Shown in pieces: positions 1,189 to 63,590 of a stretch of 64,000 nt of DNA (the stretch's first letter is position 1; each line of letters opens with the position of its first letter). The position numbers and the translations under genes were made by a program. The notes under the pieces were generated by a model that did not search any database, was not told where the DNA came from, and saw nothing but the letters and a program-made list of their open reading frames with translations. Origin of the DNA: Candidatus Kaiserbacteria bacterium (GTDB lineage: Bacteria > Patescibacteriota > Minisyncoccia > Phycocordibacterales > UBA2100); the NCBI GenBank assembly GCA_016186765.1, contig JACPLD010000001.1, forward strand, positions 133,647-197,646. Reading direction: 5' to 3'.

Positions 1189-1833
1189 TCACCACCAGTA
1201 GGAGTACGGATAGTTGTAGGAGGACGGGTACTGGTAGTACTGGTAATACGGTTGGTAGTACTGGTACTGCTGGTAGTAGGTCGGTTGATAGTAGGGGTAC
1301 TGTTGGTAGTAGGTTGCCTGACACGTGTTCGTGCCGCCGGGCCCGTACACCGTCATCCTGTAGGTCGTGTTTGGCGCGGGGTAGACAGTCCTCGAGCCGT
1401 ACGTCGCCACAACGCCGACATCGGGATAGATGTATGCCGAGCTCGCTCCGCTCGAAGACCACGAGAGCGTCGCCGGTTGGTTGTACCAGTAGCCGTACCC
1501 GTAGGACGAGCCGCCGTACGATGAGGTCACGGTGATGGTGCACGAGGGCGTCGGATACGCGTACGCGTAGTTGTAGTTCATGTACGGATAGCTGTATTGG
1601 TAGTTGTACGGATACGTGTACGAGTACTGATAAGGATTCGTATAGGTGTAGCTGTAATTACCTGCCTGTCCGGTAGGCAGGTACGAGCTGCACGGGTACG
1701 AAGACCAGTACCCAGTCTGTCCACTTTGGCACCAGTAGGGCGTCGTGACGGTCTGCGCAGCCGCAAACGCAAGCGGCACAAGGAGGAGCATGAGAGCAAT
1801 CGAAATTACGGCAATGGTGTGTGTTGATTTCAT
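1189..1833 (-). CDS. secreted tyrosine-rich low-complexity protein
   Basis: ORF track 1189..1890; probable start at internal MKSTHTIAVISIALMLLLVPLAFAAAQ (signal peptide), followed by Y-rich repeats (YSYTYPYNYQYSYPY... YYQQYQYYQPYYQYYQY). Confidence 0.55.
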   Translation of the reverse strand: MKSTHTIAVISIALMLLLVPLAFAAAQTVTTPYWCQSGQTGYWSSYPCSSYLPTGQAGNYSYTYTNPYQYSYTYPYNYQYSYPYMNYNYAYAYPTPSCTITVTSSYGGSSYGYGYWYNQPATLSWSSSGASSAYIYPDVGVVATYGSRTVYPAPNTTYRMTVYGPGGTNTCQATYYQQYPYYQPTYYQQYQYYQPYYQYYQYPSSYNYPYSYWW

Positions 1834-1967
1834 ATTGGCCACCTGTTTGCTGATAACTATTGCACTTCTGCACTTACTTTCTGATAACATCGACCTTTAC
1901 GATAAGAACCCGGATGGGGTTTCCTCGCACGCGCCCTATTGTGCGCGTGCGAAACAGTCTTTGCAAC

Positions 1968-2993: not shown

Positions 2994-3305
2994 TTATGAA
3001 TTATCTCTCACGTACCTGCCTTCGGCAACGGCAGCGAGCGTCTGTTGATCATCCTCAGGAGATGCGGCGTTTCTCCGCCTCACACCGCAGCGCGTACACC
3101 GGTGAATAATATCGTAGTGCGGCGAGCTGCCCTCGATTTGCACGGGCTCCATCAAGGCGCCGCAGGAAGCTGCGCGATCGCCCGGTTCGACGTCCACGTG
3201 CTTGCTCCAGAGGCAGCGCGGACAATGGTTCGAGTAGCCGCTTCCCTTCACAGCCGTACCGCATCTCTCACAGGTGAAGTCTTCAAGCACTTTGATGAAT
3301 GTCAT
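2994..3305 (-). CDS. RNHCP-domain zinc-ribbon protein
   Basis: 103 aa with the literal NHCPRC motif (SGYSNHCPRCLW) plus CxxC pairs (CERCG, CTRCG). Confidence 0.7.
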   Translation of the reverse strand: MTFIKVLEDFTCERCGTAVKGSGYSNHCPRCLWSKHVDVEPGDRAASCGALMEPVQIEGSSPHYDIIHRCTRCGVRRRNAASPEDDQQTLAAVAEGRYVRDNS

Positions 3306-3314
3306 GACGGCTTG

Positions 3315-5054
3315 CTACTTAACCAGTACTGATGCACTGCTCTCGAGGAGCGTACCCCCAGTGGCGCTACACTGCAAGGTAAATTTCCACGTTCCGGGAG
3401 TCGATGTCGCAGAGACTACGAGAGTCCTCGAGCCCTCATTGCTTCGCGCAAAGAGCGCATTGGCTCCTCCGCTCTCGACATACACACGGCAGGGATCCTG
3501 TGCTCTCACGCCGACACTCGACCACGAGACGACAAGTGGGTTCCCGCGCAAAACCTCTTTTGGCTGAACAACGATTAGGGCGGCAGGAGCGACCTCCGCA
3601 GCCTGCGAGGCCCTCCGCAATGCCTCTCGCAACTGCTCCGCGGCGGAGGAGGTCGCAAGCGGGGTCGGAGCAATGTGGCTGACCGGTCGGAGTTCATACT
3701 GTCCGGTCGCAGGATTGTAGACATATTGAGACTGCGGCTGCTGCGCAGACTGCGGAGCAATAGCCGGGTACCCTGCGCCGGAAGAAGGTACTCCACTTGT
3801 GGGAACACCGCCTCCAGAAGGTCCGTATCCAGCCGAAGCTCCAGAAGCAAACGGATTAGCGTTCGCAAACGGACTTCCCCCACCTCGTATGGCATAGTCT
3901 TTCGCATCGTAGTTGAAATTTGGATCGCCAAAAAGTCGGGCGAATTGTGCAGCATAGCTTCCGACGGTCGTCCCAAAGGCATCAGCCCTCCCATACTTCC
4001 CAACCGATCCTGGACCCCCAAACCACGCTTGGGCGGCAGCCGTGTGGCTCCCAAATTGATTCACGTATTGGCCGAATTTGTGCCTAAACACGGCATCCTG
4101 CAGGGCTGGGTTGCGGAGGAACTGTTCCGGTGTCGCGCATTGGCCAATTTCGCACGTCCACCTCCAAATATTATCTCCTCTGACCTGGTACGCGCCGTAG
4201 ACACATACGTTTGTACAAGTTCTAATCCCATACCTACCGCCGCTCTCCATGTACCGTATGACTTGCGCGGCTCTGCACAATTCGTCGCAAACTTGTCCCG
4301 CTTCTCCCACCGGAGCCGCACCAAGCGTTACGTCTCCCAAGTACGTCCAGTCATCGGTCCTCTCATAGTTGATCCGTTCGTTATCCTCATCCGGCTGCAA
4401 GTATTTGACATCTCGCAGGTCTTCGTTCAAACCTAATTCCCCAGCCGCTGCCCTCGCCCCCTCTCGGTCTCCGTCGATAATTTTTAATGCCAAATCTTTT
4501 GCTAGATCCGGATTTTCATTTACGTCTGCGCTGGTAATGTCAGATACGCCCATCTCTTGAAGCGCCTGTGCGAGCGCTTCCCGATCTGCGCTGGTCGTAA
4601 GATCAAGATTTCCAACCTGTTCGCGGGCAGTTGCACGATCGCTCAAATCAATGGGGGTGCGCAAGCATGATGAGATCTTCTTTTCGTAGTTCGGGTCGCA
4701 TTTCGAGATCGTGCAAGACTTTTTGACATCAACATAAAACGTAACATCCCCACAGCGAGTGGTTGGACAGCTGTCAACTTTACATGCATCCTCTCCGGCT
4801 CTCCGTGTGCTTCCAGTTGGAGTAATGGTGAAAGTTCCCTGCTCTGCGTCGAGTTTTATAGACTCGTGAACACATCGGTCGTTGGAACTCTTTATCGGCC
4901 CCTTGATATCCTCAAGCTTAGTGGCCGGCAGCTCCTTGTCCGCCGGACATTTAACGGATCCATCCTTGTAGGAGGTTGACTCTCCAACAGCTCCGACTAC
5001 AACAGGAATCAGCAACAGTGCGCCAAAGAGAAAAAAAGCGCGAATACGCATCAC
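3315..5054 (-). CDS. secreted multidomain protein: signal peptide, Cys-rich N-terminal region, putative lysozyme/lytic-transglycosylase-like core, C-terminal ~90-aa domain shared with the next gene
   Basis: 579 aa; MMRIRAFFLFGALLLIPVVVGA signal peptide; YMESGGRYGIRTCTNVCVYGAYQV resembles the ES...GLMQ catalytic motif of SLT domains (weak); C-terminal VVQPKEVLRGNPLVVSWSSVG...CRVYV...TPGTWKFTLQC is paralogous to the C-terminus of 5114..6478. Confidence 0.55.
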   Translation of the reverse strand: MMRIRAFFLFGALLLIPVVVGAVGESTSYKDGSVKCPADKELPATKLEDIKGPIKSSNDRCVHESIKLDAEQGTFTITPTGSTRRAGEDACKVDSCPTTRCGDVTFYVDVKKSCTISKCDPNYEKKISSCLRTPIDLSDRATAREQVGNLDLTTSADREALAQALQEMGVSDITSADVNENPDLAKDLALKIIDGDREGARAAAGELGLNEDLRDVKYLQPDEDNERINYERTDDWTYLGDVTLGAAPVGEAGQVCDELCRAAQVIRYMESGGRYGIRTCTNVCVYGAYQVRGDNIWRWTCEIGQCATPEQFLRNPALQDAVFRHKFGQYVNQFGSHTAAAQAWFGGPGSVGKYGRADAFGTTVGSYAAQFARLFGDPNFNYDAKDYAIRGGGSPFANANPFASGASAGYGPSGGGVPTSGVPSSGAGYPAIAPQSAQQPQSQYVYNPATGQYELRPVSHIAPTPLATSSAAEQLREALRRASQAAEVAPAALIVVQPKEVLRGNPLVVSWSSVGVRAQDPCRVYVESGGANALFARSNEGSRTLVVSATSTPGTWKFTLQCSATGGTLLESSASVLVK

Positions 5055-5113
5055 GCCTTATTCTACCGCGGGATTCGGACGAGAATTTCGAGAATGTTGA
5101 AAACCCCTAGCTC

Positions 5114-6478
5114 TCACTTCACAACAGCAGACGTCTCGCGCTTCAGCAACGTGCCGGAGGGCCGCGTGCACTCAAGCGTGAAGTTCCATACGCCGGGAGT
5201 CGTCGTCGCATGAGTGGAGATAGCGCGAGACCCCGCATTCCCGCGAGCGAGGATGGTACTCGCTCCCCCGCGTGAGAGGCTCACCTGACAGGGACTCAAG
5301 ACGCTCATGCCGACCGAAGACCACGAAACAAAGATCGGATTACCGCGCGTGACTTCTTGCGGCCGTACGACGATGGACGCCTCGGGCGAAGGTGATGGTC
5401 TGGGCGAAGCGGGTGATTCGGACGACCTGCGAGAAAATAAGTTGCGCAGGAGTGAAAAGAGACTCGAGAACAGATTCGAATTAGCGAACGGACCTCCACG
5501 CTGATACGAAGGACTCGCATACGGATAGCCCGTTGGATAGTACGACGAATCGTACCCGTAGAACGCATCCTCTTGAGCTGCCGAATCTGGAGGCGCAGCT
5601 TGTGTTGTTCCCCCTCTCTCAAAGGTATCTGGAACTGCTTGAGTCATCTCTTTTACAGAAGCAACCGTCGCCGGAGGAATCTTCTCAGGATCGATGTCAG
5701 ACAGTTTTTTAACGTCCTCCCGATTCAACTCCGGTACATTACTCGCAATTGCTTCCGCGCTCTGTGCGTCGCCTGACCTCCCTTTGGCAATAACATTTAG
5801 GACATCTTCCGTTTTTCGTGGGTCCTTGGCAATCTCAGCAGCTTTCTGTGGATCCATACCTACCTCCTCCGTTAAGAACTTTTCGGTTGCGGCTGCTCCA
5901 GCCGGTGGTGTAAGTGCCTTCGTAACTCCTTCTGTCACCGGTTTATCAATTTGCGGGACCGCCACGGGTTCCGCGGACGAAGGCGCCAGTGCCGCATGGG
6001 CACTGACAGGTGGAACATACTTGCTCAAATCCGCTCCGCCGCAAGCATCCTCAAATGCCCTCCTATAATCAGTAACGCACTTAGAAATCCTGAACACTGG
6101 CTTCTTGCAATTCCTATTGTACGTTCTGAGATCGATCGTCACCGTCGGCCGTCGTTGCCTCTTGCCGGGGTCACAACCCACCTCCTCAAGATGACTCGGC
6201 TCCGTACAAATGCACGTGATTCTATCGGTGAGTAAACCATAACCACTGAAAAGACCGGTCCTTTTGATGCTCAGCGTTACGACCTCATCGGTGCACAAAT
6301 TTGTGCTTCCAAAAAATCCACTCAGGGCCTCTGCAAATGTGGGCTTGTCAGTAACTTTATCAGAGGACCTTTTCGTGACAGTTCCCGGTTTGCAGACAGT
6401 CTGGTGCACTTGCAGGGATTCCGCCGTCGCTGCGGGCACAAGAATAGCCAACACGAGGAGAAGGCGTGTAATGAGCAT
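5114..6478 (-). CDS. secreted protein, paralog of 3315..5054 (shared Cys-rich N-terminal and C-terminal Ig-like domain; acidic/Pro-rich middle)
   Basis: 454 aa; signal peptide MLITRLLLVLAILVPAATA; C-terminal VVRPQEVTRGNPIFVSWSSVG...CQVSL...TPGVWNFTLEC aligns with the C-terminus of the upstream gene. Confidence 0.55.
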   Translation of the reverse strand: MLITRLLLVLAILVPAATAESLQVHQTVCKPGTVTKRSSDKVTDKPTFAEALSGFFGSTNLCTDEVVTLSIKRTGLFSGYGLLTDRITCICTEPSHLEEVGCDPGKRQRRPTVTIDLRTYNRNCKKPVFRISKCVTDYRRAFEDACGGADLSKYVPPVSAHAALAPSSAEPVAVPQIDKPVTEGVTKALTPPAGAAATEKFLTEEVGMDPQKAAEIAKDPRKTEDVLNVIAKGRSGDAQSAEAIASNVPELNREDVKKLSDIDPEKIPPATVASVKEMTQAVPDTFERGGTTQAAPPDSAAQEDAFYGYDSSYYPTGYPYASPSYQRGGPFANSNLFSSLFSLLRNLFSRRSSESPASPRPSPSPEASIVVRPQEVTRGNPIFVSWSSVGMSVLSPCQVSLSRGGASTILARGNAGSRAISTHATTTPGVWNFTLECTRPSGTLLKRETSAVVK

Positions 6479-6536: not shown

Positions 6537-6788
6537 TCAGAGAAGTACAACAGCGCGATTGCTGGAAAATTCCAGCACGCCGCTCTCAATGGGAAAATCC
6601 TTCGGCTCCTCCGTTAATTCACGGACTCGGATGGTTCCCTTCTTGAGCGTTGTCACCAGCGGTTCGTGGTGCGCAAGTACGGTCAGCTCGCCATCAGAGC
6701 CGGGAAAAGTGGCCGACACCGCCGGACCGTCGAAACGCGTTTCCCCGATGCTTGCGATGACAAGATGAAAAGTATTCGCTCCGCTCAT
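6537..6788 (-). CDS. atpC: F0F1 ATP synthase subunit epsilon (short form, N-terminal beta-sandwich only)
   Basis: 83 aa MSGANTFHLVIASIGETRFDGPAVSATFPGSDGELTVLAHHEPLVTTLKKGTIRV; lies immediately downstream of atpD. Confidence 0.8.
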   Translation of the reverse strand: MSGANTFHLVIASIGETRFDGPAVSATFPGSDGELTVLAHHEPLVTTLKKGTIRVRELTEEPKDFPIESGVLEFSSNRAVVLL

Positions 6789-6794
6789 ACTTAG

Positions 6795-8626
<1,832 letters not shown>

Positions 8627-8630
<4 letters not shown>

Positions 8631-9226
8631 AGAAATTCTGCTATGAGGATCTCTCTTGCTTTTGCGAGCGCTCGGCCGCGATGGCTATAGCGATTCTTTT
8701 CCTCGACGGACATTTCTCCGCCGGTTTTGCCAGCTTCATCGTAGAGAAAAATCGGATCGTAACCGAACGATCGCTCGCCTCTCGGTTCACGTGTGATGTG
8801 GCCATATACTTCTTCGCGGCACGTTTTTAGATCTCCCCTCGCTGGATCGTAGATAGCGATCACCGTAACGAATCGCGCCGTTCTCTTTTCATCAGGAACA
8901 TCCTTCATCGCATCAAGCAGCTTTCTGTTTCTGTCGGCATCAGTGCCCGGTACGTACCGAGCGCTCTGTATGCCGGGAGCGCCGTCGAGCGCATCCACTT
9001 CGAGCCCCGAATCGTCGGCAAGCGTGAGCATACCAGCCTTCGTTCCGTATTCTCTCGCCTTGATGACCGAGTTTTCCTTGAATGTCGCGCCTGCTTCCTC
9101 CGGTTCGAATCCTTCAAGCTCCGGTACATGGTTGATGTCAATGACGTTGAACGGAACCCCTTCAAACGCATGGCGTATCTCCGGCATCTTTCCCTCGTTC
9201 CGAGTCGCGATAAGTAATTCTCTCAT
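8627..9226 (-). CDS. rdgB: non-canonical purine NTP pyrophosphatase (dITP/XTP pyrophosphatase, RdgB/HAM1 family)
   Basis: 199 aa MRELLIATRNEGKMPEIRHAF...ADDSGLEVDALDGAPGIQSARY, characteristic of the Ham1/RdgB family. Confidence 0.85.
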
Positions 9227-9257: not shown

Positions 9258-10172
9258 CTATTTCATCGCCTCAATGCCAGAAGTGATCTCGGAAACTTCG
9301 CGAGTAATCGCGGCCTGGCGGGCTTTGTTGAAGGTGCGCGTGAGCTCCCCGGCCATTTCTTTCGCCTTGTCGGTCGCGTTCTTCATCGCGACCATGCGCG
9401 CGCTATGTTCGGATGCTTTTGATTCGAGCATCTTGTGGAATATGGCGATGTTAACCAGGCGCGGCACGAGAGCCGCCAAGACCTCGTCGGCATCCGGCTC
9501 GATCGTGTATACCGCTACCCCATTGCCATTTTCAACCTCGGCATACTTGCCACGCACCGGGAGGATCTCCTCGACCATGTGCTCCACAGCTCTTCGCGAG
9601 AGCGGCAGCACTTTGTGCACGGCTGGATGCTGTTCGAAAATTGATCGGAAATTTGTATAGGCGACGCGTACTTCGCGGACGCCTCCTGCTCGATACAGAG
9701 AAATCGCTTGGTCCGTGATTACGCGGAATTCGCGCTCGTCAATGGCATCAGCAATGTTCGTGTGAAAATGCACCACGTTGTATCCGCTACGGAGCGCAAA
9801 TTCGTATCCACGCTTCCCGAGACAAAGAAAAATGAGATCATCGCGTGAAAGATTCTCTTCTTTGATGAACTTCTCGGTTTCTCGGATGACGGCACTGTTG
9901 AGGGCGCCAGCAAGTCCTTTATCACTCGTGATGATGATGATCACTACCTTGCCCTCCGCAGGCACGTGCATTAAGGAGTGCCGTGCGACGTTCGTGCTGC
10001 CGGAGATACCGGCGAGCACCCGCAGTCCTGCACGGGCATATGGCCTGGAGGAAATGGCACGCTCTTGGCTCTTGCGCATCTTCACGGCGGATACCGCCTC
10101 CATGGCATGCGTGACCGTACCAGTCTTTTTGTATGACTGGATCTTCAGCTTAATGTTCTTTAAACTCGCCAT
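9258..10172 (-). CDS. atpG: F0F1 ATP synthase subunit gamma
   Basis: 304 aa MASLKNIKLKIQSYKKTGTVTHAMEAVSAVKMRKSQERA..., typical gamma N-terminus; conserved operon position. Confidence 0.9.
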   Translation of the reverse strand: MASLKNIKLKIQSYKKTGTVTHAMEAVSAVKMRKSQERAISSRPYARAGLRVLAGISGSTNVARHSLMHVPAEGKVVIIIITSDKGLAGALNSAVIRETEKFIKEENLSRDDLIFLCLGKRGYEFALRSGYNVVHFHTNIADAIDEREFRVITDQAISLYRAGGVREVRVAYTNFRSIFEQHPAVHKVLPLSRRAVEHMVEEILPVRGKYAEVENGNGVAVYTIEPDADEVLAALVPRLVNIAIFHKMLESKASEHSARMVAMKNATDKAKEMAGELTRTFNKARQAAITREVSEITSGIEAMK

Positions 10173-20740: not shown

Positions 20741-22036
20741 CTATCTCTTTTTCCATTCATCATCCTGGCGCACCAAGAGCTCAGGGGCGCGCTCCGGTTC
20801 GGCCATGAGTTTCTCCACCGAACGCTCCATGCGCATGGATTGCGAGCCCTTCACGAGAACGATGTCGCCGTCGCGAAGTTCGCCCCGCAACTCTTGTCCC
20901 GCGCGCCGCGATTCATTCTGTTCGTACTCTTTGATGTTTGCTTCTGGCATGCTAGCGTCGAGCGCCGCCTCTCCTGTCGCGCGCGAGCGAAAACCGACGG
21001 TGATGAGTCTCTCTGCGCACTGTGCAGTGCGTACTCCCACCTGCCTGTGCGCCTCGGTTGCAAACCTACCGAGCTCGAGCATGTCGCCCAAAACAGCGAT
21101 GCGCCGCCCGCCTTCCGGAATTTTGACTTCTTTGAGTGTATCGAGCGCCGAGAGCGCCGCCGCCGGGGAGGAGTTGTACGTGTCGTCGATGATAGTCGAG
21201 CCATTCACGCCCCTGATCACGCGCATCCTCCCCGGCGGCGGGCTCCACTGCGAGAGCGCCTGCCGCAACTGCGCCGCGTCGATGCCTGCGACGTCAGCTA
21301 CCGCAAAAGCGGCAAGTGCCCCGTAGGTATGGGCCTTTCCGAGCGCACCGACAATGGAGACCGGAAGTGCAAGATTGCCGCTTACAAGCCGAAAGCGCGT
21401 ACCGATGGGCTTCCCCTTTTCGTACAGAATACCCTGATGCGAAGCTGAGTACGTATTGTGTTTTCCGAGTCCGTACGTTGCAACATTTTTGAATCCGGCG
21501 GACATATCGATCGTCCGGGAATCATCCCCGTTCACAATCACCCTGCCGCTTTCTTTCACGTGTTCGGCGAGCGCGCGCTTCTCTCGCGCGAGCTCGAGGG
21601 GCGTGCGGAAAAATTCCACATGCACGGGAATATCCGGTACGCCCGTGATAACGGCGATATCGGGCTTCAGCCACCTTGCGACACGCCTGATGTCGCCGGG
21701 ACGATCAGCGCCGACTTCGACGACGAGCCACAGGGGATACGGCGTCTTTCGAACAACGAGCATAAGTCCGCGCGCGAGATTCAGGGCCCACATAAGGGGG
21801 TTCCGCCACGCGTTCTCCAGACCGAGGATGGTGAGTGGAACGCCGATATCGCTGTTGAAACTCTTCTCGCTTTTGCGGACATGCAAAGCGCTCGAAAGCG
21901 CTGCGTATATCGCATCCTTCGTCGTAGTCTTTCCGACACTGCCGGTAACGGCGATTATCTTCGGCTGATAGCGCCACAGGACAAGCTTAGCTTCTAGAGT
22001 AAGGGTGACCACTATCAGTTTTTTGATCGTTTGCAT
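20741..22036 (-). CDS. murF: UDP-N-acetylmuramoyl-tripeptide--D-alanyl-D-alanine ligase
   Basis: 431 aa; Mur ligase ATP-binding motif GSVGKTTTKD; sits in the dcw-cluster position after ftsI. Confidence 0.85.
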   Translation of the reverse strand: MQTIKKLIVVTLTLEAKLVLWRYQPKIIAVTGSVGKTTTKDAIYAALSSALHVRKSEKSFNSDIGVPLTILGLENAWRNPLMWALNLARGLMLVVRKTPYPLWLVVEVGADRPGDIRRVARWLKPDIAVITGVPDIPVHVEFFRTPLELAREKRALAEHVKESGRVIVNGDDSRTIDMSAGFKNVATYGLGKHNTYSASHQGILYEKGKPIGTRFRLVSGNLALPVSIVGALGKAHTYGALAAFAVADVAGIDAAQLRQALSQWSPPPGRMRVIRGVNGSTIIDDTYNSSPAAALSALDTLKEVKIPEGGRRIAVLGDMLELGRFATEAHRQVGVRTAQCAERLITVGFRSRATGEAALDASMPEANIKEYEQNESRRAGQELRGELRDGDIVLVKGSQSMRMERSVEKLMAEPERAPELLVRQDDEWKKR

Positions 22037-22050
22037 GGCGAAGTGGACGA

Positions 22051-22113
22051 GCCACTAGCCACTAGGGTATAGGGTTTAGGGAATTTCACTAGTGGCTATC
22101 CCCTATTAGCTAG
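22051..22113. repeat. composite CTAG-rich repeat module upstream of murF (inverted and direct copies of the ctagtggcta / tagggtataggg units)
   Basis: gccactagccactagggtatagggtttagggaatttcactagtggctatcccctattagctag, between the ftsI stop (22117) and the murF start (22036). Confidence 0.7.
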
Positions 22114-22116
22114 TTC

Positions 22117-23829
22117 CTATCTATCGGGCGGGATATCGTAGTAGTTAATCAAAAACTTCGTAATGTCGAGAAACGGCCGCGCGAGCGTTGCCGAGGCGAA
22201 TTGAGCGCCGTGCGGTTCGACCGCTACAAGAAAGACAATAAACTGTGGATCATGCGCGGGGAAATAACCGAAGAACGAGTGCAGGTAGCGATCTTTGTAG
22301 TAGCCTCCTCCGCCTGGAATTGCTATCTGGGCCGTCCCGGTCTTTGCGGCGATCGAGTAGTGCTCTTGCTTGAGGACCCCTCCCAGAAGCGCAGTATCAA
22401 ATACCTTCACCAGCATGTCGGTCACCGTCTGAACCGTCTCCTCCTTCAGTACACGTGGCCCTTGCGGCGGGAGGATGCTTCGAACAATGCCGCTCTCGAG
22501 CTTAATATCGGAGACGACATGCGGTGATGGCAGCACTCCATCATTTGCCAAGGCACTAAGCGCGCGGATCATCTCGACGCCGGTCACTGCGATCCCCTGT
22601 CCGAAGGAAGCCGAAGCAAAGTCGACGTCGTAGGCTCGATCGAGACTTTTCACTAGCCCCGTCGCCTCATTAGGAAGATCGATGCCGGTTTTTTCACCGA
22701 GGCCGAAGGCATGAACGTATTCGCGAAACACATTATGACCGACCCGCCCCTCGATGAACGAGGCACCAAGGTTCAACGATTGATTCAACACCTCTTGCAT
22801 GTCGACGACCCCGCGCGCTTTGCCGTCATAGTTGCATATCTCCTTCCCGCTCTTTTGAATGCAGCCGCGGTCCTCATAGGTCGTCTTCGGCCTTATCGCA
22901 CCTACATCCAAGCCAGCGGCAATGGTGAGAGGCTTCATGATTGAGCCCATCTCGTAGACATTTTCGACCAACGGGTTCCCGAACATGGAGACCTCGGTGG
23001 TGTTGTAGGTGTTAGGATCGAAGCCCGGCCGCGCCGCGATCGCGATGATCTCACCGGTGTGAGGGTCCATGATGATCCCGCCCCCGATCTTCGGCGTATA
23101 GGTGCTCATCACCGCCTCGAGTGTCTTCTCGAGACGCGCCTGCACCTGTGGCTCGATGGAGGTAATGACATTCCCATAGCTCTCGGCGGGGTCGGAAAGC
23201 GCCGTTCCGACATTGATGAAGATCTCCGCGAATGGATTGACGTACAAACCCGAGGCTGCCTTCGCAAGAGTTTTTTCGTAGCTTCGCTCAAGCCCGTACC
23301 TGCCGACCTTCTCGTCGCCCCGATACCCAACGAAGCCGATCGCATGCGCCGCAAGCACACCTCCCGGATAGTTGCGCCACTTATCTTGAACGAGGATCAC
23401 GCCCAGAAGCTTGAGCGAGCGGATACGCTGTGCAGTATCGTCCGGAAGTCGAAAGGCTACCTCTTCATACGGGTCATCATACTTGCTGGCACTCGCAAAA
23501 AAGCGCTCGCGATCAGGTACGGCGAACGAGAGCGTCTGGTAGGCAGCTTCGGGATCTTCAAGCTCCTTCGGCACGATAGCGAGGCGCCATCCACTCTGCA
23601 TCAGCGCCGCTGCAACGAGATCGCCATCGCGCTTCGTAAAGAATATGGAGCCGCGGTCCTCGACGTCGCGTACGTCGGCGACGTACTGGCCGCGAGCGTC
23701 TAGCTCATATCGATCGCCGTGCACGATTTGCACGAAATACAGCCGCGCCGCAAGGAATGCCGCGGCGAGGATGAAGAGGGCGGAAAGGACTCTCGCTCGC
23801 TCGACAAAGCCGAGACTCTTAAATTTCAT
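22117..23829 (-). CDS. ftsI: penicillin-binding protein (FtsI-type transpeptidase)
   Basis: ORF track 22117..23985; start taken at MKFKSLGF (membrane anchor) so that it overlaps the ftsL stop by 11 nt. SxxK (GSIMKP) and KTG (AAKTGTAQ) motifs. Confidence 0.85.
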   Translation of the reverse strand: MKFKSLGFVERARVLSALFILAAAFLAARLYFVQIVHGDRYELDARGQYVADVRDVEDRGSIFFTKRDGDLVAAALMQSGWRLAIVPKELEDPEAAYQTLSFAVPDRERFFASASKYDDPYEEVAFRLPDDTAQRIRSLKLLGVILVQDKWRNYPGGVLAAHAIGFVGYRGDEKVGRYGLERSYEKTLAKAASGLYVNPFAEIFINVGTALSDPAESYGNVITSIEPQVQARLEKTLEAVMSTYTPKIGGGIIMDPHTGEIIAIAARPGFDPNTYNTTEVSMFGNPLVENVYEMGSIMKPLTIAAGLDVGAIRPKTTYEDRGCIQKSGKEICNYDGKARGVVDMQEVLNQSLNLGASFIEGRVGHNVFREYVHAFGLGEKTGIDLPNEATGLVKSLDRAYDVDFASASFGQGIAVTGVEMIRALSALANDGVLPSPHVVSDIKLESGIVRSILPPQGPRVLKEETVQTVTDMLVKVFDTALLGGVLKQEHYSIAAKTGTAQIAIPGGGGYYKDRYLHSFFGYFPAHDPQFIVFLVAVEPHGAQFASATLARPFLDITKFLINYYDIPPDR

Positions 23830-24250
23830 TGAGCTCAACGTCGGCGTTTGCAGTATCTGCCTCAGCGGGCCCGCCTGCGGAGAGGGTCCCCGGACGGTGA
23901 ATGTAGAGCGTCCGAGCGACGGGAGAGAGGCCAAGGCGCACGCCATCCTCGGGTCCGATGCCCTGTGAGAGAGCGAAGTATTCACGCTCGAGTTTTGAAA
24001 CGGCAGTCACGAGATGAGCCGACTCCGCAAGCGCTTCTTTTCTCGCGATGACGTTCAAGATCGTCGAACCGACAAAATACACGTAGGAGAACGCGAGGAG
24101 TACTACAGCGCCGATGAGTACGCGAAAGAGCAAATGCTCCGCGGGATGTTCGGAGGTAAGCGAAAACGCTCGATGCCTACCGGCAAAATCAAGCCTCCCC
24201 TGAAATATCGAGGGAGCGTACTTGCTTATTTTTTGTATTTTGGCTCTCAT
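23819..24250 (-). CDS. ftsL: FtsL-like cell-division protein (small bitopic membrane protein)
   Basis: 143 aa; single TM (LLFRVLIGAVVLLAFSYVYFV); position between rsmH and ftsI. Confidence 0.5.
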   Translation of the reverse strand: MRAKIQKISKYAPSIFQGRLDFAGRHRAFSLTSEHPAEHLLFRVLIGAVVLLAFSYVYFVGSTILNVIARKEALAESAHLVTAVSKLEREYFALSQGIGPEDGVRLGLSPVARTLYIHRPGTLSAGGPAEADTANADVELNEI

Positions 24251-24253
24251 GCG

Positions 24254-24330
24254 AAGAAGTTGGATGTTAGAAGTTGGAAGTTTGATATTTCCAACCTCTA
24301 ATCTCTAACTCCTAACTTCTCAATCACACG
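24254..24330. repeat. AT-rich imperfect palindrome / AGTTAG direct repeats in the rsmH-ftsL junction
   Basis: gaagaagttggatgttagaagttggaa gtttgatatt tccaacctctaatctctaactcctaacttctc; the right half overlaps the rsmH 3' end. Confidence 0.4.
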
Positions 24331-25434
24331 AAGCTTTGCGCTGCGTGCACGAGGGTTCTCTCGCACCTCTTCCCTGCTCGGCACAATTGGTTTCCTCGAA
24401 AGCAAGCGGCCCTCCTGCTCACGGACCCACTCGGCAAATGCACGCTTGACTATCCTGTCCTCAAGGCTATGAAAGGATATGACCGCGAGGCGGCCGCGAG
24501 GCTTAAGCAGCTGCCACGCCGCCTGCAAGCCTTCGGTGAGTGCCGCAAGCTCGTCGTTCACGGCGATGCGAAGCGCCTGAAACGCACGCGTCGCGGGATG
24601 TATCCGGCCTCGCCTTAAGCGAACGGGGGTCGCCGCTGCAATCGTCTGGGCAAGTTCGCGGGAAGTCGCGAAAGGTTTCTTCATCCTGCGCTCGACTATC
24701 GCTTTGGCAATCCTTCGTGCGTATCGCTCGCCACCGAATCCGAAAAAAATATCGGCGAGGGTTCTCTCACTCCACGTGTTCACGATGGTCGCTGCAGTTA
24801 GTTCAGCCTCCTTGCCTCCATATGTCATGAGGAGCGGCTCGTCAGAAAGAAACGAAAATCCTCTTCCGGAGTTGAGCTGGTAGCTGCTCCACCCTAGATC
24901 GAAGAGAGCCTTCGTCATCGTCGTTACGCCGAGCGCACGAAGCTCACGTGTCATATTTCTGAAATTGCCGCACACCACGTGGACTTTCGCGCGAACACCG
25001 GCAAGACGCCTGCGGGCACGCACTACTGCCTGTGGATCTGCGTCGAAGCCGACGAGGAGTCCCCGAGGCCCGAGGCCCTTCGAGAGCTCTCTCGCGTGAC
25101 CTGCCCCGCCGAGTGTCGCGTCCACGACAATATCGTCTGGCTGCACGTCGAGCGCACGCATGACTTCGTGTAAAAGAACGGGTCGGTGCCTTTGGCTCGC
25201 CGTAGCTTTAGCGAAGGCGGCTGCCCGCCTCCGCTCTACCGAGCTTCGGCGAGACGATGACAGCACCGGGTTGCTGGAGGAAAAATGTCGCGTGCGCATA
25301 TTTTTTTGATCCTCCAGCCACCTTGTGCAACCATCCGTCTTTATAGAGCTCCGATCTGACCGAGCTTCTTCGCCATCTGCTCTGCGTTGCGGTCGATTCC
25401 GCGTTTGTAATTTCCCCAGCGATCGGCATCCCAA
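24298..25434 (-). CDS. rsmH: 16S rRNA (cytosine1402-N4)-methyltransferase
   Basis: 378-aa ORF (true start probably internal); RsmH/MraW motifs PVLLHEV...DATLGGAGHA...FDLGWSSYQL. Confidence 0.9.
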   Translation of the reverse strand: MGCRSLGKLQTRNRPQRRADGEEARSDRSSIKTDGCTRWLEDQKNMRTRHFSSSNPVLSSSRRSSVERRRAAAFAKATASQRHRPVLLHEVMRALDVQPDDIVVDATLGGAGHARELSKGLGPRGLLVGFDADPQAVVRARRRLAGVRAKVHVVCGNFRNMTRELRALGVTTMTKALFDLGWSSYQLNSGRGFSFLSDEPLLMTYGGKEAELTAATIVNTWSERTLADIFFGFGGERYARRIAKAIVERRMKKPFATSRELAQTIAAATPVRLRRGRIHPATRAFQALRIAVNDELAALTEGLQAAWQLLKPRGRLAVISFHSLEDRIVKRAFAEWVREQEGRLLSRKPIVPSREEVRENPRARSAKLRVIEKLGVRD

Positions 25435-33380: not shown

Positions 33381-33447
33381 GTCAAAAGTATTCAACAGAC
33401 TCAACGCATTGCAAACTTTTGCCTTTTGATTTTTGCCTTTTGACTTT
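33364..33447. repeat. extended imperfect inverted repeat with internal gtcaaa(a/g)ggcaaaa direct repeats between mrdA and greA
   Basis: aaagtcaaagggcaaaagtcaaaag ... cttttgccttttgatttttgccttttgacttt (arms ~25 bp, spacer ~30 bp); overlaps the mrdA stop. Confidence 0.5.
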
Positions 33448-35143
33448 ACTCTACATATTCCGGTTTATTCGCGATAAGCCATTCGAAAAAGGGCCGCAGG
33501 CCTGGCGCTGCGCCGCTAAGCGTCCCTGCCGGAGCTTTCTCCAAAACAGCCGCGTATGCGTACTTCGGATTCTCTGCGGGCCAGAAGCCGACAGACCATG
33601 AGTTTATCCATTCATTCTTCGCGCCGACCTGCGCAGTCCCCGTTTTCGCCGCGATCGAGATCCCCGGCATATTGAGGACCTTCACGGTCGCATCCTGTCG
33701 CGTTGATGTAACTGCCATACGCATGCCTTCGCGCACGATCTGCAGGTACAAATCCGGTACACCGACATCGACGTACTCCGGTGCTTCCCCCGCAATGATC
33801 TGAGGCGTGAGAAGCCTACCGCCGTTTGCGATCGCGGCGATGAAGCGTACCGCCTGCAGCGGCGTAATTTGGAAGCCATATTGCCCGATCGCGGTATGGT
33901 ATGTGTTGCCGATCCGCCACGGGTCATCTTCGCCGAACACCGCCGCTTTCCACTCGGGTGTCGGTATCACTCCTACTTGCTCGCCAAAGAGCGCAACGCC
34001 GGATAGCTGCCCGAGGCCAAAGCGCCTCGCGTATTCGTCGAGCTTGCGTATGCCGAGACCCACCTGTGAACCATATCCGCCACCGATCGTATAGAAGTAC
34101 TCATCGCTCGAAACCGCGATCGCCTCACGCATGTCGATCGCACCGTGCACGGTCCAGTCGCGATAGACTGAAGGGTGCTGCGGATCGTACGGATTCGGGA
34201 TCGTGATCGCACCCTTGGAGACGACCTCCTCCTCAGGGCCAATGATCCTCTCATTCAAGGCAGCGGCAGCGAAGATCGGCTTCACGATAGAGCCCGGTGC
34301 ATAGAGCCCGGAGATCGCGCGATCGAGAAGCGGTGAGCGCAAGTCTTCCGAGACTACGCGGATCGTCTCTGCATCACCTTCGGCAAAGGCCGCATGATCG
34401 TAGCCGGGAAAGCTTGTAAGTGCGATCAGCTCGCCGGTTTCCACATCCATGATGACAGAGGCACCCCCGACAAAATCCTGCCTCCTAGCATGAGCTGAGA
34501 GAAACGAAAAAAGTTTGCTCTGCAGCTCGGCGTCTATTGAGAGCACGAGATCCTGCCCGCTCACTGCTTTTTCGACAACAAGGTGCCCCTGCGCCTCTCC
34601 TCTCGCGTCAGTTTCGGTCATCGTGCTGCCGTTTTTACCAGCGAGCGTTCCGTCGAACGCGCGCTCGGCACCCGAGACACCCGTAATCTCTTCGCGCCAC
34701 CAAACCCCCGTGGCATCCACTTTCGGATAGCGTACAAATCCGACGAGGTGCGAGAGACCCGGCGAATCAGCGTAGGCGCGAAGCGCAAATGAGCTCTCGC
34801 TGCTCGAGGCGGCGACGTTCCACGCGAGTTTGCGTCCCGTCCTATCGTAGAGTTCTCCGCGGGAAGCGAAGGTGAGTGAGCGGTGGAAGCGATTCTCACG
34901 CGAGATATCGGCATAAGCCTCGCCGTTGAGGATTGACAAATCGAAGAGGCGTGCGGTAAATGCCGCGATCACGAGAGTGAGCGCGAGACCGACACCGAGA
35001 ATAGCGCGGCTAGAAAGGGGCAGAACGACCCGCGCCTCAAGATGCGGGTCGTCACGGCCTGGGAGGTTCGACGAGTCGAGAAAAATATCTTCGGGTGCGA
35101 TCTCACGAACGTTGCGAGATTTTCTTCCAAACATCACGACCAC
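33446..35143 (-). CDS. mrdA: penicillin-binding protein 2 (elongasome transpeptidase)
   Basis: 565 aa; SxxK (GSIVKP), KTG (AAKTGTAQV); follows mreBCD. Confidence 0.85.
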   Translation of the reverse strand: MVVMFGRKSRNVREIAPEDIFLDSSNLPGRDDPHLEARVVLPLSSRAILGVGLALTLVIAAFTARLFDLSILNGEAYADISRENRFHRSLTFASRGELYDRTGRKLAWNVAASSSESSFALRAYADSPGLSHLVGFVRYPKVDATGVWWREEITGVSGAERAFDGTLAGKNGSTMTETDARGEAQGHLVVEKAVSGQDLVLSIDAELQSKLFSFLSAHARRQDFVGGASVIMDVETGELIALTSFPGYDHAAFAEGDAETIRVVSEDLRSPLLDRAISGLYAPGSIVKPIFAAAALNERIIGPEEEVVSKGAITIPNPYDPQHPSVYRDWTVHGAIDMREAIAVSSDEYFYTIGGGYGSQVGLGIRKLDEYARRFGLGQLSGVALFGEQVGVIPTPEWKAAVFGEDDPWRIGNTYHTAIGQYGFQITPLQAVRFIAAIANGGRLLTPQIIAGEAPEYVDVGVPDLYLQIVREGMRMAVTSTRQDATVKVLNMPGISIAAKTGTAQVGAKNEWINSWSVGFWPAENPKYAYAAVLEKAPAGTLSGAAPGLRPFFEWLIANKPEYVE

Positions 35144-41826: not shown

Positions 41827-42843
41827 TCAGCGCTTGGCAATTATTGCCTTCTTATATGCGTCGAGGTGCTTGAGTGCCTCGCCCGTGCCCATTGCAACGC
41901 AAAACGGCGCGTCTTTGGCAAGCCGCGCACGCACGCCCGTGCGGCGGAAAACGAGCTCGGGAAAGTTGCGGAGAAGGCTCGTGCCACCCGTCATTACGAT
42001 GCCGTTGTCGATGATGTCTGCCGCAAGTTCGGGAGGCGTCTCCTGCAGCACATCCTTCATTGCGTTGATGATGGTGCGCAGCTCTTTGCCGATCGCACGC
42101 ACGACCTCATTGGTGCCGATCTCGATCGAGCGCGGCAGTCCTGTGAGGTGATCACGCCCCTTCGCCATCATCATCAACTCTTGCTCGATCGGTACGGCGG
42201 AGCCGATGCGTATTTTTACATCCTCCGCCATCTTGTCGCCTATCGAGAGGTTATATGTCTTCTTGGTGTAGTCGGCGATCGCGCGATCCAGAGCATTACC
42301 AGCGCACTTCACCGAGGTTGAAGCGACAATACCACCAAGAGAAATGACGGCAATGTCAGTCGTGCCCCCTCCGATATCAACGATCATGTGCCCACGCGCC
42401 TCGTGAATGGGAATCCCCGCACCGATTGCAGCAAGGATTGGCTCCTTTACGACATATGCTTCACGCGCACCCGCTTTCGTTGCCGCCTCTATGACCGCGC
42501 GACGCTCCGTCGATGTCACGCCGGCAGGGACGGAAACCATGACTTCAGGACGGAAGAGGTTCCACTTCCCCAGCGATTTGCGGATGTAGTAGCGGAGCAT
42601 CGCTTCGGTGACGCGGTAATCTGCTATCACGCCGTCTTTCATCGGCCGGTAGGCGACGATCTCGTCGGGTGTGCGGCCGACCATCTCTTTCGCCTCATTG
42701 CCTACCGCGAGGATTCTGTTGCCCGCAGTGGAGACTGCCACGACTGATGGCTCATTGAGAACGATCCCCTTACCCGGAACGAAGACCAAGACCGTCGTCG
42801 TGCCGAGGTCGATACCGAGTTTTGGAGATAGCGAGAATGCCAT
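41827..42843 (-). CDS. MreB/Mbl-family actin homolog (second paralog, separate from mreBCD)
   Basis: ORF track 41827..42984; start taken at MAFSLSPKLGIDLG (ATG at 42843). Motifs GIDLGTTTVLVFV, MIVDIGGGTTD. Confidence 0.85.
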   Translation of the reverse strand: MAFSLSPKLGIDLGTTTVLVFVPGKGIVLNEPSVVAVSTAGNRILAVGNEAKEMVGRTPDEIVAYRPMKDGVIADYRVTEAMLRYYIRKSLGKWNLFRPEVMVSVPAGVTSTERRAVIEAATKAGAREAYVVKEPILAAIGAGIPIHEARGHMIVDIGGGTTDIAVISLGGIVASTSVKCAGNALDRAIADYTKKTYNLSIGDKMAEDVKIRIGSAVPIEQELMMMAKGRDHLTGLPRSIEIGTNEVVRAIGKELRTIINAMKDVLQETPPELAADIIDNGIVMTGGTSLLRNFPELVFRRTGVRARLAKDAPFCVAMGTGEALKHLDAYKKAIIAKR

Positions 42844-42874
42844 AGAGAAAAGCATTGTATCCGTAAGAGGAGAT

Positions 42875-43060
42875 TTGACAAACTTCACACAACTTTTATA
42901 AAGGATGAAGCGTGGTCTGGAGCTCCTCTTCCAGACCAAGCCGCGGCGGGGAGCTGCTTCCCCCCAGTGGCTTACCCGCCGCACTTTACGTCCGCCGAAT
43001 CCTCACGAGGTTCAACCGGACGAAGGAGCCGTTGTCATACCCCAGCGGCTCCTTTTCTTT
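42875..43060 (+). ncRNA. candidate small RNA transcription unit (sigma70-like promoter ... GC-rich hairpins ... intrinsic terminator)
   Basis: TTGACA (42875..42880), 16-nt spacer, TATAAA (42897..42902). Hairpins ggtctgga/tccagacc and gggga/tcccc. Terminator ggagccg-13 nt loop-cggctcc + ttttctttct (43025..43060). No plus-strand ORF. Confidence 0.3.
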
Positions 43061-63170: not shown

Positions 63171-63590
63171 TTAGGGTAGCACGTTGACGTGAGTCGCGCA
63201 CGCGTTCGCAGCTCCCTGCCTGCTATATACGGTGAGCGTGTAGATCGTTGTTTCTCGAGGCGACACATTCGTGCCGCCCACGACGGCGACAGTGCCGACG
63301 GATGAGAGGTACGCAGAGGAAGTGTTCTCCGAGCCCCATGCAAGGTTCGAGCTCTCACCGCCTCGCAAGGTGGCCGGGTACGCGGAGATGATGCACGTAG
63401 GATCTGCGCTCGGAGGAGGAGATACCTCGCCGCAGTCGTAGCCGCAGTCGGACCAATATGCGAGCGCGCCTGATGCAACGAGCTGCCGATCCTCGGGGGC
63501 TGAAATGTCGAGCGAGAGGTACCCGAAGACAAGGCCAAGTAGCATGACGAGCAGGGCGACAAGAAACAGCGCAAGTGTGTAGCGCATCAT
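63171..63590 (-). CDS. hypothetical membrane-anchored secreted protein (small beta-rich domain)
   Basis: 139 aa; N-terminal TM (LALFLVALLVMLLGLVFGYL) then a Cys-containing beta-rich region. Confidence 0.45.
   Translation of the reverse strand: MMRYTLALFLVALLVMLLGLVFGYLSLDISAPEDRQLVASGALAYWSDCGYDCGEVSPPPSADPTCIISAYPATLRGGESSNLAWGSENTSSAYLSSVGTVAVVGGTNVSPRETTIYTLTVYSRQGAANACATHVNVLP

What the first reader, a model, noticed from the sequence alone, without database searches (positions are those of the whole stretch)
3315..6478. Tandem paralogous secreted proteins sharing a conserved ~90-aa C-terminal domain, one with a lysozyme/transglycosylase-like core
The two adjacent genes encode signal-peptide proteins whose C-termini align closely: VVQPKEVLRGNPLVVSWSSVGV...C.V.V..GGA..LAR.N.GSR......T.TPG.W.FTL.C. 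Both also have Cys-rich N-terminal modules. The first additionally carries YMESGGRYG...GAYQV, reminiscent of the E-S...G-L-M-Q catalytic signature of lytic transglycosylases. The shared C-terminal module may be a cell-surface anchoring or prey-binding domain attached to different effector modules. Such a domain would be relevant to an epibiotic or predatory lifestyle.
Basis: partly seen in the sequence, partly recalled or inferred. Interest (0 to 1): 0.5.

Follow-up and report, generated by a model that had tools for sequence, protein, structure and literature searches.

The report
Secreted cell-wall cutter plus enzyme-less twin
Two neighbouring genes of a Kaiserbacteria (candidate phyla radiation) genome encode a secreted peptidoglycan-cutting enzyme of the lytic-transglycosylase fold and a sister protein that has the same end modules but no enzyme domain. 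The enzyme type is ordinary, but it sits in a fixed genomic slot whose enzyme part has been swapped repeatedly between related genomes.

Summary
Gene A (3315..5054, minus strand, 579 aa) and gene B (5114..6478, minus strand, 454 aa) both start with Sec-type signal peptides. Their last 86 residues are 53% identical (E 2e-27).

- **Shared C-terminal domain:** it folds as a 7-strand Ig-like beta-sandwich (pLDDT 96) with two invariant Cys.
- **Closest relatives outside Kaiserbacteria:** domains inside phage tape-measure and minor-tail proteins.
- **B:** it is not a different effector. It shares A's 8-Cys N-terminal module and the C-terminal domain but lacks the enzyme core.
- **Distribution:** the C-terminal domain was found in 365 protein clusters, and every named member is from Kaiserbacteria. 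In all 10 loci read, the protein sits between atpC and an RNHCP gene. The middle domain varies there: two transglycosylase-fold types, one endolysin-like type, two unknown types, or none.

Verdict: a lineage-specific variant of a known enzyme class. Whether it targets the organism's own wall or a host's wall is unresolved. Interest is moderate to low.

The parts
3315..5054 (-). Gene A: 579-aa secreted multidomain protein (identical to NCBI hypothetical protein HYW60_00765, Candidatus Kaiserbacteria)
   Evidence: ORF; 100% match P0001
4989..5054 (-). A signal peptide (residues 1-22, predicted cleavage VGA|VG)
   Evidence: Read from the sequence; no predictor was run
4650..4982 (-). A N-terminal 8-Cys module (residues 25-135), an orphan fold with invariant C-x2-E, C and K-C
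   Evidence: Cys positions; alignment A9; no Pfam or PDB relative; homologous to B's module
4341..4649 (-). A acidic linker (residues 136-238), presumed helical but not modelled
   Evidence: Alignment A4; similarity to B 200-290 is weak (E 0.002, probability 13%, inconclusive)
3921..4289 (-). A lytic-transglycosylase-like catalytic core (residues 256-378). The candidate catalytic Glu270 codon is at 4245-4247. The core holds 6 Cys that the CPR sequences in alignment A1 have and the other aligned sequences lack
3585..3920 (-). A Ala/Gly/Ser/Pro-rich linker (residues 379-490), including the conserved GGSPFANANPF motif
   Evidence: Composition; the motif is shared with B 328-339 and conserved in A4 and A6
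3318..3584 (-). A C-terminal Ig-like beta-sandwich domain (residues 491-579) with invariant Cys522 and Cys562
5114..6478 (-). Gene B: 454-aa secreted paralog without a catalytic domain
   Evidence: ORF; orthologs P0104 and P0109; no Pfam, NCBIfam or PDB match
6422..6478 (-). B signal peptide (residues 1-19, predicted cleavage ATA|ES)
   Evidence: Read from the sequence
6029..6415 (-). B N-terminal 8-Cys module (residues 22-150)
5384..6028 (-). B Ala/Pro/Ser-rich and acidic middle region (residues 151-365); no enzyme domain detected
5117..5383 (-). B C-terminal Ig-like domain (residues 366-454) with invariant Cys397 and Cys437
6537..6788 (-). atpC (ATP synthase epsilon subunit), the upstream boundary of the conserved slot; 58 nt before B
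   Evidence: ORF; PF02823 at the same position in related loci
2994..3305 (-). RNHCP-domain protein, the downstream boundary of the slot; starts 9 nt after A's stop
   Evidence: Pfam E 1.5e-29; same position in 9 of 10 related loci

Best explanation
A is exported by the Sec pathway and is stabilised outside the cell by up to 8 disulfide bonds (16 Cys). Its residues 256-378 form a GH23-like lytic-transglycosylase domain. This domain probably cuts the MurNAc-GlcNAc bond of peptidoglycan glycan strands, using Glu270 of the invariant Glu-Ser motif as the single acid/base. The beta-hairpin carries no conserved second carboxylate, which points to transglycosylase rather than hydrolase chemistry; that step is inferred. 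The N-terminal 8-Cys module and the C-terminal Ig-like domain are non-catalytic and probably position the enzyme on a wall or surface. B keeps both non-catalytic modules and lacks the enzyme, so it most likely occupies the same binding sites as a scaffold, partner or competitor; this too is inferred. The pair fills a fixed core-genome slot directly after the ATP-synthase operon in Kaiserbacteria. I commit to the organism's own sacculus as the target: a housekeeping space-maker for growth, division and envelope-spanning machines. Component probabilities: muralytic transglycosylase-fold enzyme about 0.8; own wall rather than host wall about 0.5; any specific role for B 0.3 or less.
For: Shown:
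- The C-terminal domains are homologous.
- A profile-profile alignment to the SLT-type domains of sister proteins gives 98%, E 2e-13, with ES on ES and G-x-Y-Q on G-x-F-Q. Some of those sister proteins pass Pfam SLT.
- E, S, Y, G, Q, W and other residues are invariant across 24 diverse sequences.
- The same domain sits in rhizobial phage tape-measure proteins and in Streptomyces phage minor tail proteins, some annotated 'glycosylase'.
- In sister proteins the same position holds SLT, Destabilase, Rpf-like or DPBB domains, and an RlpA-like DPBB protein occupies the slot in L008/L009. The slot's theme is glycan-strand cleavage.
- The A and B N-terminal modules are homologous.

For an own-wall target:
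- The slot is conserved in 10 of 10 loci among housekeeping genes.
- The genes point the same way as the atp operon, with short gaps and no convincing terminator.
- The window encodes a Mur ligase, two class-B PBPs, MraW and MreB, so the cell builds its own wall.
- GC content is uniform and no phage genes are nearby.
Against: - No curated model (Pfam SLT or SLT_3, NCBIfam) recognises A at any useful threshold. Direct sequence matches to solved lysozymes are marginal (E 0.08-0.4).
- Catalysis is not shown, and the position of Glu270 in the active-site cleft was not checked on coordinates.
- Against an own-wall target: the closest catalytic relatives are phage virion proteins that attack walls from outside, and the catalytic domain has been replaced several times at the same locus while the flanking modules persist (and the loci above). 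That pattern is more typical of host-interaction or conflict genes than of housekeeping enzymes.
- B is present in only 4 of 10 loci, so it is not an obligatory partner.
- Only 64 kb of the genome was visible, so other transglycosylases that could do the housekeeping job cannot be excluded.
Confidence: 0.5

Rival explanations
1. A is a host-directed weapon or feeding tool. It is displayed or released at the contact site and opens the peptidoglycan of a host bacterium, so the epibiont can attach, insert pili or take up nutrients. The Ig-like and 8-Cys modules bind the host surface. B is a non-catalytic adhesin or decoy that uses the same receptors. Repeated swapping of the catalytic domain tracks different host walls or host inhibitors.
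For: The closest catalytic relatives are phage tape-measure and minor-tail domains that breach walls from outside. The P0139-type middle domain in sister proteins matches phage 'endolysin' and tape-measure PHROGs. At least five middle-domain types occupy one orthologous slot, flanked by conserved modules. The protein is heavily disulfide-bonded and extracellular. [quoted passage not shown]
Against: No secretion-system, pilus or immunity gene is adjacent; the neighbours are the atp operon, RNHCP, a small membrane protein and a flavodoxin-like reductase. The locus is core and syntenic, and it may be co-transcribed with atp. The organism has its own wall, which needs such an enzyme. An RlpA-like protein fills the slot in L008; outside this study RlpA is a housekeeping enzyme. 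The host of Kaiserbacteria is unknown, so nothing links the enzyme to a prey wall.
Confidence: 0.33
2. The transglycosylase fold in A is catalytically dead or repurposed. Both A and B are then non-enzymatic surface proteins (glycan-binding adhesins or envelope structural proteins), and the lysozyme-like domain serves only as a peptidoglycan- or glycan-binding module.
For: No curated enzyme model is matched. B shows that the architecture is viable without the enzyme, and 13 sister proteins also have the N-terminal module and C-terminal domain but no recognised middle domain. The Ig-like fold is commonest in adhesins.
Against: Glu-Ser, G-x-Y-Q and about 19 other positions are invariant across phage and CPR members. 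Such conservation is expected for an active site, not for a decayed one. Sister proteins carry bona fide SLT domains at the same position.
Confidence: 0.1
3. The pair is a remnant of a prophage tail module (a fragment of a tape-measure or minor-tail protein) left in the chromosome, with no cellular role.
For: Outside the CPR clade, the best matches of the core are phage tape-measure proteins, phrog_24990 and Streptomyces phage minor tail proteins.
Against: Both proteins have signal peptides. There are no phage genes on either side. GC content is uniform. The position is identical in 10 independent Kaiserbacteria loci. The Cys patterns and reading frames are intact and conserved. No tape-measure region (PF06791) is present in A.
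Confidence: 0.02

Closest known systems
Family GH23 / SLT-type lytic transglycosylases (E. coli Slt70, MltC, MltE; P. aeruginosa Slt; C. jejuni Cj0843c; phage phiKZ gp144)
   Different: A does not reach the Pfam SLT or SLT_3 thresholds, and identity to solved structures is only 13-18%. The six CPR sequences in alignment A1 (A and five relatives, four with all six Cys) carry up to 6 extra Cys that the other aligned sequences lack. The flanking domains (8-Cys module, Ig-like C-terminal domain) are not those of Slt70 (superhelical U and L domains), MltC or MltE. The reaction product has not been determined.
Lysozyme-like domain embedded in tape-measure proteins of rhizobial phages (e.g. Sinorhizobium phage phiLM21, Rhizobium phage RHph_Y3_1) and in minor tail proteins of Streptomyces phages; phrog_24990
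   Same: This is the closest sequence family outside the CPR clade: 36-50% identity over about 110 residues, with the same invariant residues. It is presumed to be a virion-associated peptidoglycan-cleaving domain.
   Different: In phages the domain lies inside a tail protein of about 1000 aa, without a signal peptide, and is delivered by the virion. Here it sits in a Sec-exported chromosomal protein at a housekeeping locus, with extra Cys and different partner domains.
Modular autolysins and endolysins of monoderm bacteria (a catalytic domain plus a C-terminal cell-wall-binding domain such as SH3b, LysM or CW_7)
   Same: The logic is the same: a muralytic domain followed by a linker and a small C-terminal non-catalytic domain, and catalytic domains are exchanged between relatives.
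   Different: The C-terminal domain here is a lineage-specific Ig-like sandwich with no match to known wall-binding domains. There is an additional N-terminal 8-Cys module. Wall binding has not been shown.
RlpA-type (DPBB) septal lytic transglycosylases
   Same: A secreted DPBB_1 protein occupies the same slot after a B-like gene in the Kaiserbacteria loci L008 and L009. This suggests functional equivalence of the slot's occupants.
   Different: The fold is unrelated (double-psi beta-barrel), and that protein has no Ig-like C-terminal domain.

Membership tests
GH23 / SLT-type lytic transglycosylase (lysozyme-like superfamily) | Lysozyme-like alpha+beta fold | tested here: met
GH23 / SLT-type lytic transglycosylase (lysozyme-like superfamily) | Catalytic Glu in an E-S motif, followed by a hairpin and a G-L-M-Q-like motif | tested here: met
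   E270-S271 and G287-A-Y-Q290 are invariant in 24 of 24 sequences. hhalign places them on the ES and G-x-F-Q of SLT-type domains. HMMER aligns them to the ES...YGIFQ segment of an insect lysozyme, which from general knowledge holds the catalytic Glu, at a marginal E of 0.08. The position in the 3D cleft was not inspected.
GH23 / SLT-type lytic transglycosylase (lysozyme-like superfamily) | Match to a curated family model (Pfam PF01464 SLT, PF18896 SLT_3, or NCBIfam) above its cut-off | tested here: not met
   A has no hit at E up to 1. Among 24 family members, one scores E 0.015 against SLT_3 and one E 0.078 against SLT.
GH23 / SLT-type lytic transglycosylase (lysozyme-like superfamily) | Produces 1,6-anhydro-MurNAc ends (transglycosylase rather than hydrolase) | not testable with these tools
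   This needs enzyme assays and muropeptide mass spectrometry. The absence of a conserved second carboxylate in the hairpin (NVCVYG in A) is only suggestive.
Phage tail-associated lysozyme-like domain (phrog_24990; rhizobial tape-measure and Streptomyces minor-tail type) | Significant match to the family profile | tested here: met
   phrog_24990 scores E 9.9e-22 over A 286-376. phmmer and BLAST give E 1e-15 to 1e-32 against tape-measure proteins. tblastn finds 33 phage records.
Phage tail-associated lysozyme-like domain (phrog_24990; rhizobial tape-measure and Streptomyces minor-tail type) | Embedded in a virion tail protein within a phage or prophage | tested here: not met
   A has a signal peptide and no tape-measure region. 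Its neighbours are the atp operon and housekeeping genes. The position is syntenic in 10 loci.
Bacterial Ig-like beta-sandwich domains (Big / FN3 / MG-type) | Seven-strand beta-sandwich | tested here: met
Bacterial Ig-like beta-sandwich domains (Big / FN3 / MG-type) | Match to a curated Ig-like family model | tested here: not met
   There is no Pfam or NCBIfam hit on A or B. The only indirect link is that a Big_13/Big_9-repeat protein (P0233) matches the C-terminal-domain profile in 7 partial stretches.
T9SS C-terminal sorting domain (Por_Secre_tail type); considered because the domain is Ig-like and always at the extreme C-terminus | Match to the TIGR04183 or TIGR04131 models, and presence of an outer membrane with a T9SS | tested here: not met
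Known cell-wall-binding domains (LysM, SH3b, PG_binding_1, CW_7, SPOR) | Match to the family model | tested here: not met
   There are no hits on A or B at E up to 1.

The most novel reading that the evidence does not exclude
The slot between atpC and RNHCP in Kaiserbacteria is a dedicated, hypervariable 'wall-cutter cassette'. An orphan 8-Cys N-terminal module and a lineage-specific Ig-like C-terminal domain stay constant, while the catalytic middle is repeatedly replaced. The replacements include phage-virion-type muralytic domains: the tape-measure type, the SLT type, the endolysin-like P0139 type, and two middle domains with no match in Pfam, PHROGs or PDB sequences. In about 40% of genomes an enzyme-less paralog sits alongside. 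On this reading the cassette is the host-wall-breaching and host-range determinant of these ultrasmall bacteria, with catalytic domains recruited from phages.
Probability: 0.25. Interest if true: 0.6.

Novelty: new variant of a known kind. Interest (0 to 1): 0.33.

Why it matters
Patescibacteria (CPR) are thought to live attached to other microbes, and secreted lytic transglycosylases are among the few proposed tools for breaching a host envelope (PMC11665869). Hardly any have been characterised.

This locus offers several concrete handles:
- It is easy to find, because it is always directly after the ATP-synthase operon.
- It has a confidently modelled catalytic domain that current Pfam and NCBIfam models miss.
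- It has a natural enzyme-less control, the paralog B.
- It comes with a natural series of catalytic-domain swaps across related genomes.

It also links an un-modelled lysozyme-like domain of phage tape-measure and minor-tail proteins to a cellular enzyme family.

If the enzyme turns out to be a plain housekeeping autolysin, the value is mainly better annotation: a new SLT-like subfamily, a Kaiserbacteria-specific Ig-like domain and an orphan 8-Cys module.

Tried and rejected
- **Whole-protein searches found nothing useful.** This covers Pfam, NCBIfam and PDB-sequence searches of A and B. A profile of the core against PDB sequences gave only marginal lysozyme hits, plus a spurious Mycoplasma adhesin P1 hit.
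- **The word-indexed homolog search undercounts B's family.** It found only 2 relatives of B; the exhaustive profile search found 365 clusters.
- **Genome scans failed.** The search for related loci with the C-terminal-domain alignments had no sufficiently conserved stretch to search with. Two genome-contig scans, with alignment A4 and with single protein A, returned no confirmed locus. Context therefore came from the look-up of encoding contigs.
- **T9SS-like C-terminal sorting signal: rejected**.
- **Prophage remnant: rejected** on synteny, signal peptides and composition.
- **A third copy of the C-terminal domain in the window: rejected.** The Tyr-rich secreted protein at 1189..1890 and the small protein at 63171..63590 carry a similar 'SWSS' motif, but the profile E-value is about 0.1, which is not significant.
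- **Terminator between B and A: rejected.** The one terminator-like hairpin (5035..5059) overlaps A's start codon, and the region has fewer such sites than shuffled sequence (1 against 4.1 expected).
- **Two sister middle domains remain unidentified.** The P0107 and P0123 types have no PDB-profile, Pfam or PHROG relative and no hhalign link to the core of A. The P0139 type, likewise unlinked to A's core by hhalign and without a PDB match, matches only phage endolysin and tape-measure PHROGs.
- **Helical linkers of A and B:** homology is inconclusive (E 0.002, probability 13%).
Full report
**Observation.** A is 3315..5054 (579 aa from a GTG start). B is 5114..6478 (454 aa). BLASTP of A against B gives one strong segment: A 494-579 against B 369-454, with 46/86 identical residues, no gaps, E 2e-27. 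Both N-termini read as Sec signal peptides. A has 16 Cys: 8 in residues 36-130, 6 in 256-306 and 2 in 522/562. B has 10 Cys: 8 in residues 29-146 and 2 in 397/437. tblastn and a six-frame profile search find no third copy of the C-terminal domain in the 64-kb window. A is identical to a hypothetical protein of a Candidatus Kaiserbacteria MAG.

**The catalytic core of A.** Whole-protein searches against Pfam, NCBIfam and PDB sequences find nothing.
- The homolog search gives five A-like proteins (44-53% identity). It also gives about 100 proteins that match only A residues ~255-375. Many of these are ~1000-aa rhizobial 'phage tail length tape measure' proteins, in which the domain sits at ~690-820.
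- An alignment of 24 diverse copies (A1) has 19 invariant positions, including E-S (A Glu270-Ser271), G..Q, W and F.
- With this alignment AlphaFold gives a confident model (pLDDT 92).
- Foldseek against viral models returns a Streptomyces phage minor tail protein, a 'lysozyme-like virion structural protein', and SLT and LT_GEWL proteins.
- A profile-profile comparison of A1 with the SLT-type domains found in sister proteins gives 98% probability and E 2e-13. Several of those domains pass Pfam SLT. The comparison aligns ES with ES and G-x-Y-Q with G-x-F-Q.
- PHROGs places the segment in phrog_24990, function unknown, at E 1e-21.
- tblastn of the phage collection finds the domain under tape-measure genes of rhizobial phages and under minor tail genes of Streptomyces phages, some annotated 'glycosylase'.

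However, this is a subfamily that current curated models do not capture. The six CPR copies in alignment A1 carry up to six extra Cys that the other aligned sequences lack.

**B is an enzyme-less paralog, not a different effector.**
- B-type orthologs (P0104, P0109, P0147, and L002 6313-8004) share its N-terminal module and C-terminal domain.
- hhalign restricted to the N-terminal modules of the A-type and B-type families gives 87% probability and E 4e-6. It lines up the 'C-x2-E' and '(S/N)-K-C' motifs.
- Iterated searches seeded with either module overlap.
- A joint alignment keeps C-x2-E, C and K-C invariant.
- A short GG(S)PFAN motif after the position of the core is also shared.
- The similarity of the helical linkers is inconclusive.
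- B has no detectable domain between the N-terminal module and the C-terminal domain.
- The 8-Cys module itself has no relative in Pfam or PDB sequences.

**One slot, many enzymes.** I read the contig of every protein with the C-terminal domain that I looked up. In all 10 independent loci the protein lies directly after atpC and, in 9 of 10, directly before an RNHCP gene. A small membrane protein and a Flavodoxin_2 reductase follow in most of the loci. The 10 loci are the window, L001, L002/3, L004, L005/6, L007, L008/9, L010, L011 and L012.

The middle domain differs between loci:

| Locus | Middle domain of the slot protein |
|---|---|
| Window, L001, L002, L005 | tape-measure-type core |
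| L004, L011 | SLT-type |
| L007 | P0107-type |
| L010 | P0139-type (matches phage 'endolysin' phrog_873 at E 1e-9 and a tape-measure PHROG) |
| L012 | P0123-type |
| L008/9 | B-like gene, followed by an RlpA-like DPBB protein that lacks the C-terminal domain |

I classified the 135 full-length representatives among the 150 best hits by local iterated searches. This gave 31 tape-measure-type, 36 SLT-type, 18 P0139-type, 10 P0107-type, 5 P0123-type and 35 with no recognised middle domain. Of those 35, 13 keep the N-terminal module, as B does. Pfam adds Destabilase, Rpf-like and DPBB hits on a few. B-like genes accompany the enzyme in 4 of the 10 loci.

**Mechanism.** The following is shown: an exported, Cys-rich protein with a confidently modelled lytic-transglycosylase fold, an invariant Glu-Ser motif, and conserved non-catalytic end modules. 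The following is inferred: cleavage of the glycan strand by Glu270, disulfide stabilisation, and positioning by the Ig-like and 8-Cys modules. B would then be a non-catalytic occupant of the same sites. The target wall is not resolved.
- For the organism's own sacculus: the locus is core and syntenic, it is co-oriented with the atp operon with gaps of 58, 59 and 9 nt and no convincing terminator, the window encodes a Mur ligase, two class-B PBPs, MraW and MreB, and an RlpA-like enzyme fills the slot in one lineage.
- For a host wall: the catalytic domains are related to phage virion proteins, they are replaced repeatedly in situ, and a review notes that such a role has been proposed for Patescibacteria (PMC11665869).

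I put about 0.8 on muralytic activity, and about 0.5 on own wall against 0.33 on host wall.

**Comparison and novelty.** The enzyme works like a GH23/SLT lytic transglycosylase, and it meets the fold and motif criteria. It fails the curated-model criterion, so I file it as a divergent subfamily rather than a plain SLT member. It belongs by sequence to the phage tail-associated lysozyme-like family (phrog_24990), but it is not a phage protein. The Ig-like domain and the 8-Cys module are lineage-specific. Overall this is a new variant of a known kind. The enzymology is unsurprising. The fixed slot with swapped catalytic cassettes and the enzyme-less twin are the parts worth a specialist's attention. 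Interest 0.33.

Noticed in passing
window 6537..~14367 (minus strand); Ham1/RdgB-like gene 8627..9226 and NUDIX-like gene 8205..8630: The F-type ATP synthase operon is interrupted between atpG (9258..10172) and atpD (6853..8208) by an ITPase (Ham1/RdgB)-like gene and a NUDIX-like gene. A Ham1p_like gene sits at the same place in the related Kaiserbacteria loci L001, L002, L007, L008, L010 and L011; L010 also has the NUDIX gene.
   Followed up: partly
window 2994..3305 (minus strand): An RNHCP-domain zinc-ribbon protein (Pfam E 1.5e-29) starts 9 nt after gene A's stop. It follows the slot in 9 of 10 related loci. Its function is unknown, and so is any link to the wall enzyme.
   Followed up: partly
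window 1189..1890 (minus strand) and 63171..63590 (minus strand): A 233-aa secreted protein extremely rich in Tyr (Y-x-Y repeats) contains a 'PATLSWSSSGASS...' beta-sandwich-like segment. This segment resembles a 139-aa protein at the other end of the window (36% identity over 63 aa, E 4e-5). It is not significantly related to the C-terminal domain of A and B (profile E about 0.1).
   Followed up: partly
window 20741..25434, 33446..35143, 41827..42984: The window carries the organism's own cell-wall and shape genes: a Mur ligase, two class-B PBPs (transpeptidase plus dimerisation domain), MraW and MreB. The organism therefore makes its own peptidoglycan.
   Followed up: yes
related loci L004, L007, L008/L009, L010, L011, L012 (the gene directly after atpC): The orthologous slot carries different middle domains in different genomes: SLT-type, P0107-type, P0139-type (matching phage endolysin and tape-measure PHROGs) and P0123-type. 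In L008/L009 a B-like gene is followed by an RlpA-like DPBB protein without the Ig-like domain. The P0107 and P0123 types have no known relative.
   Followed up: partly
protein P0003 (A-like, 487 aa; ENA contig): After the conserved 'SPFGNVNPF' motif the sequence diverges completely and the Ig-like domain is missing. This looks like a frameshift or assembly error rather than a real variant.
   Followed up: no
window 58790..60889 (plus strand): A hybrid sensor kinase combines MASE1 membrane sensor, HisKA/HATPase and receiver domains. This is a fairly elaborate signalling protein for a reduced CPR genome.
   Followed up: no
window 5051..5054: Gene A can start at GTG 5054 (579 aa) or at the adjacent ATG 5051 (578 aa, as in the NCBI record). 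The choice does not affect any conclusion.
   Followed up: no
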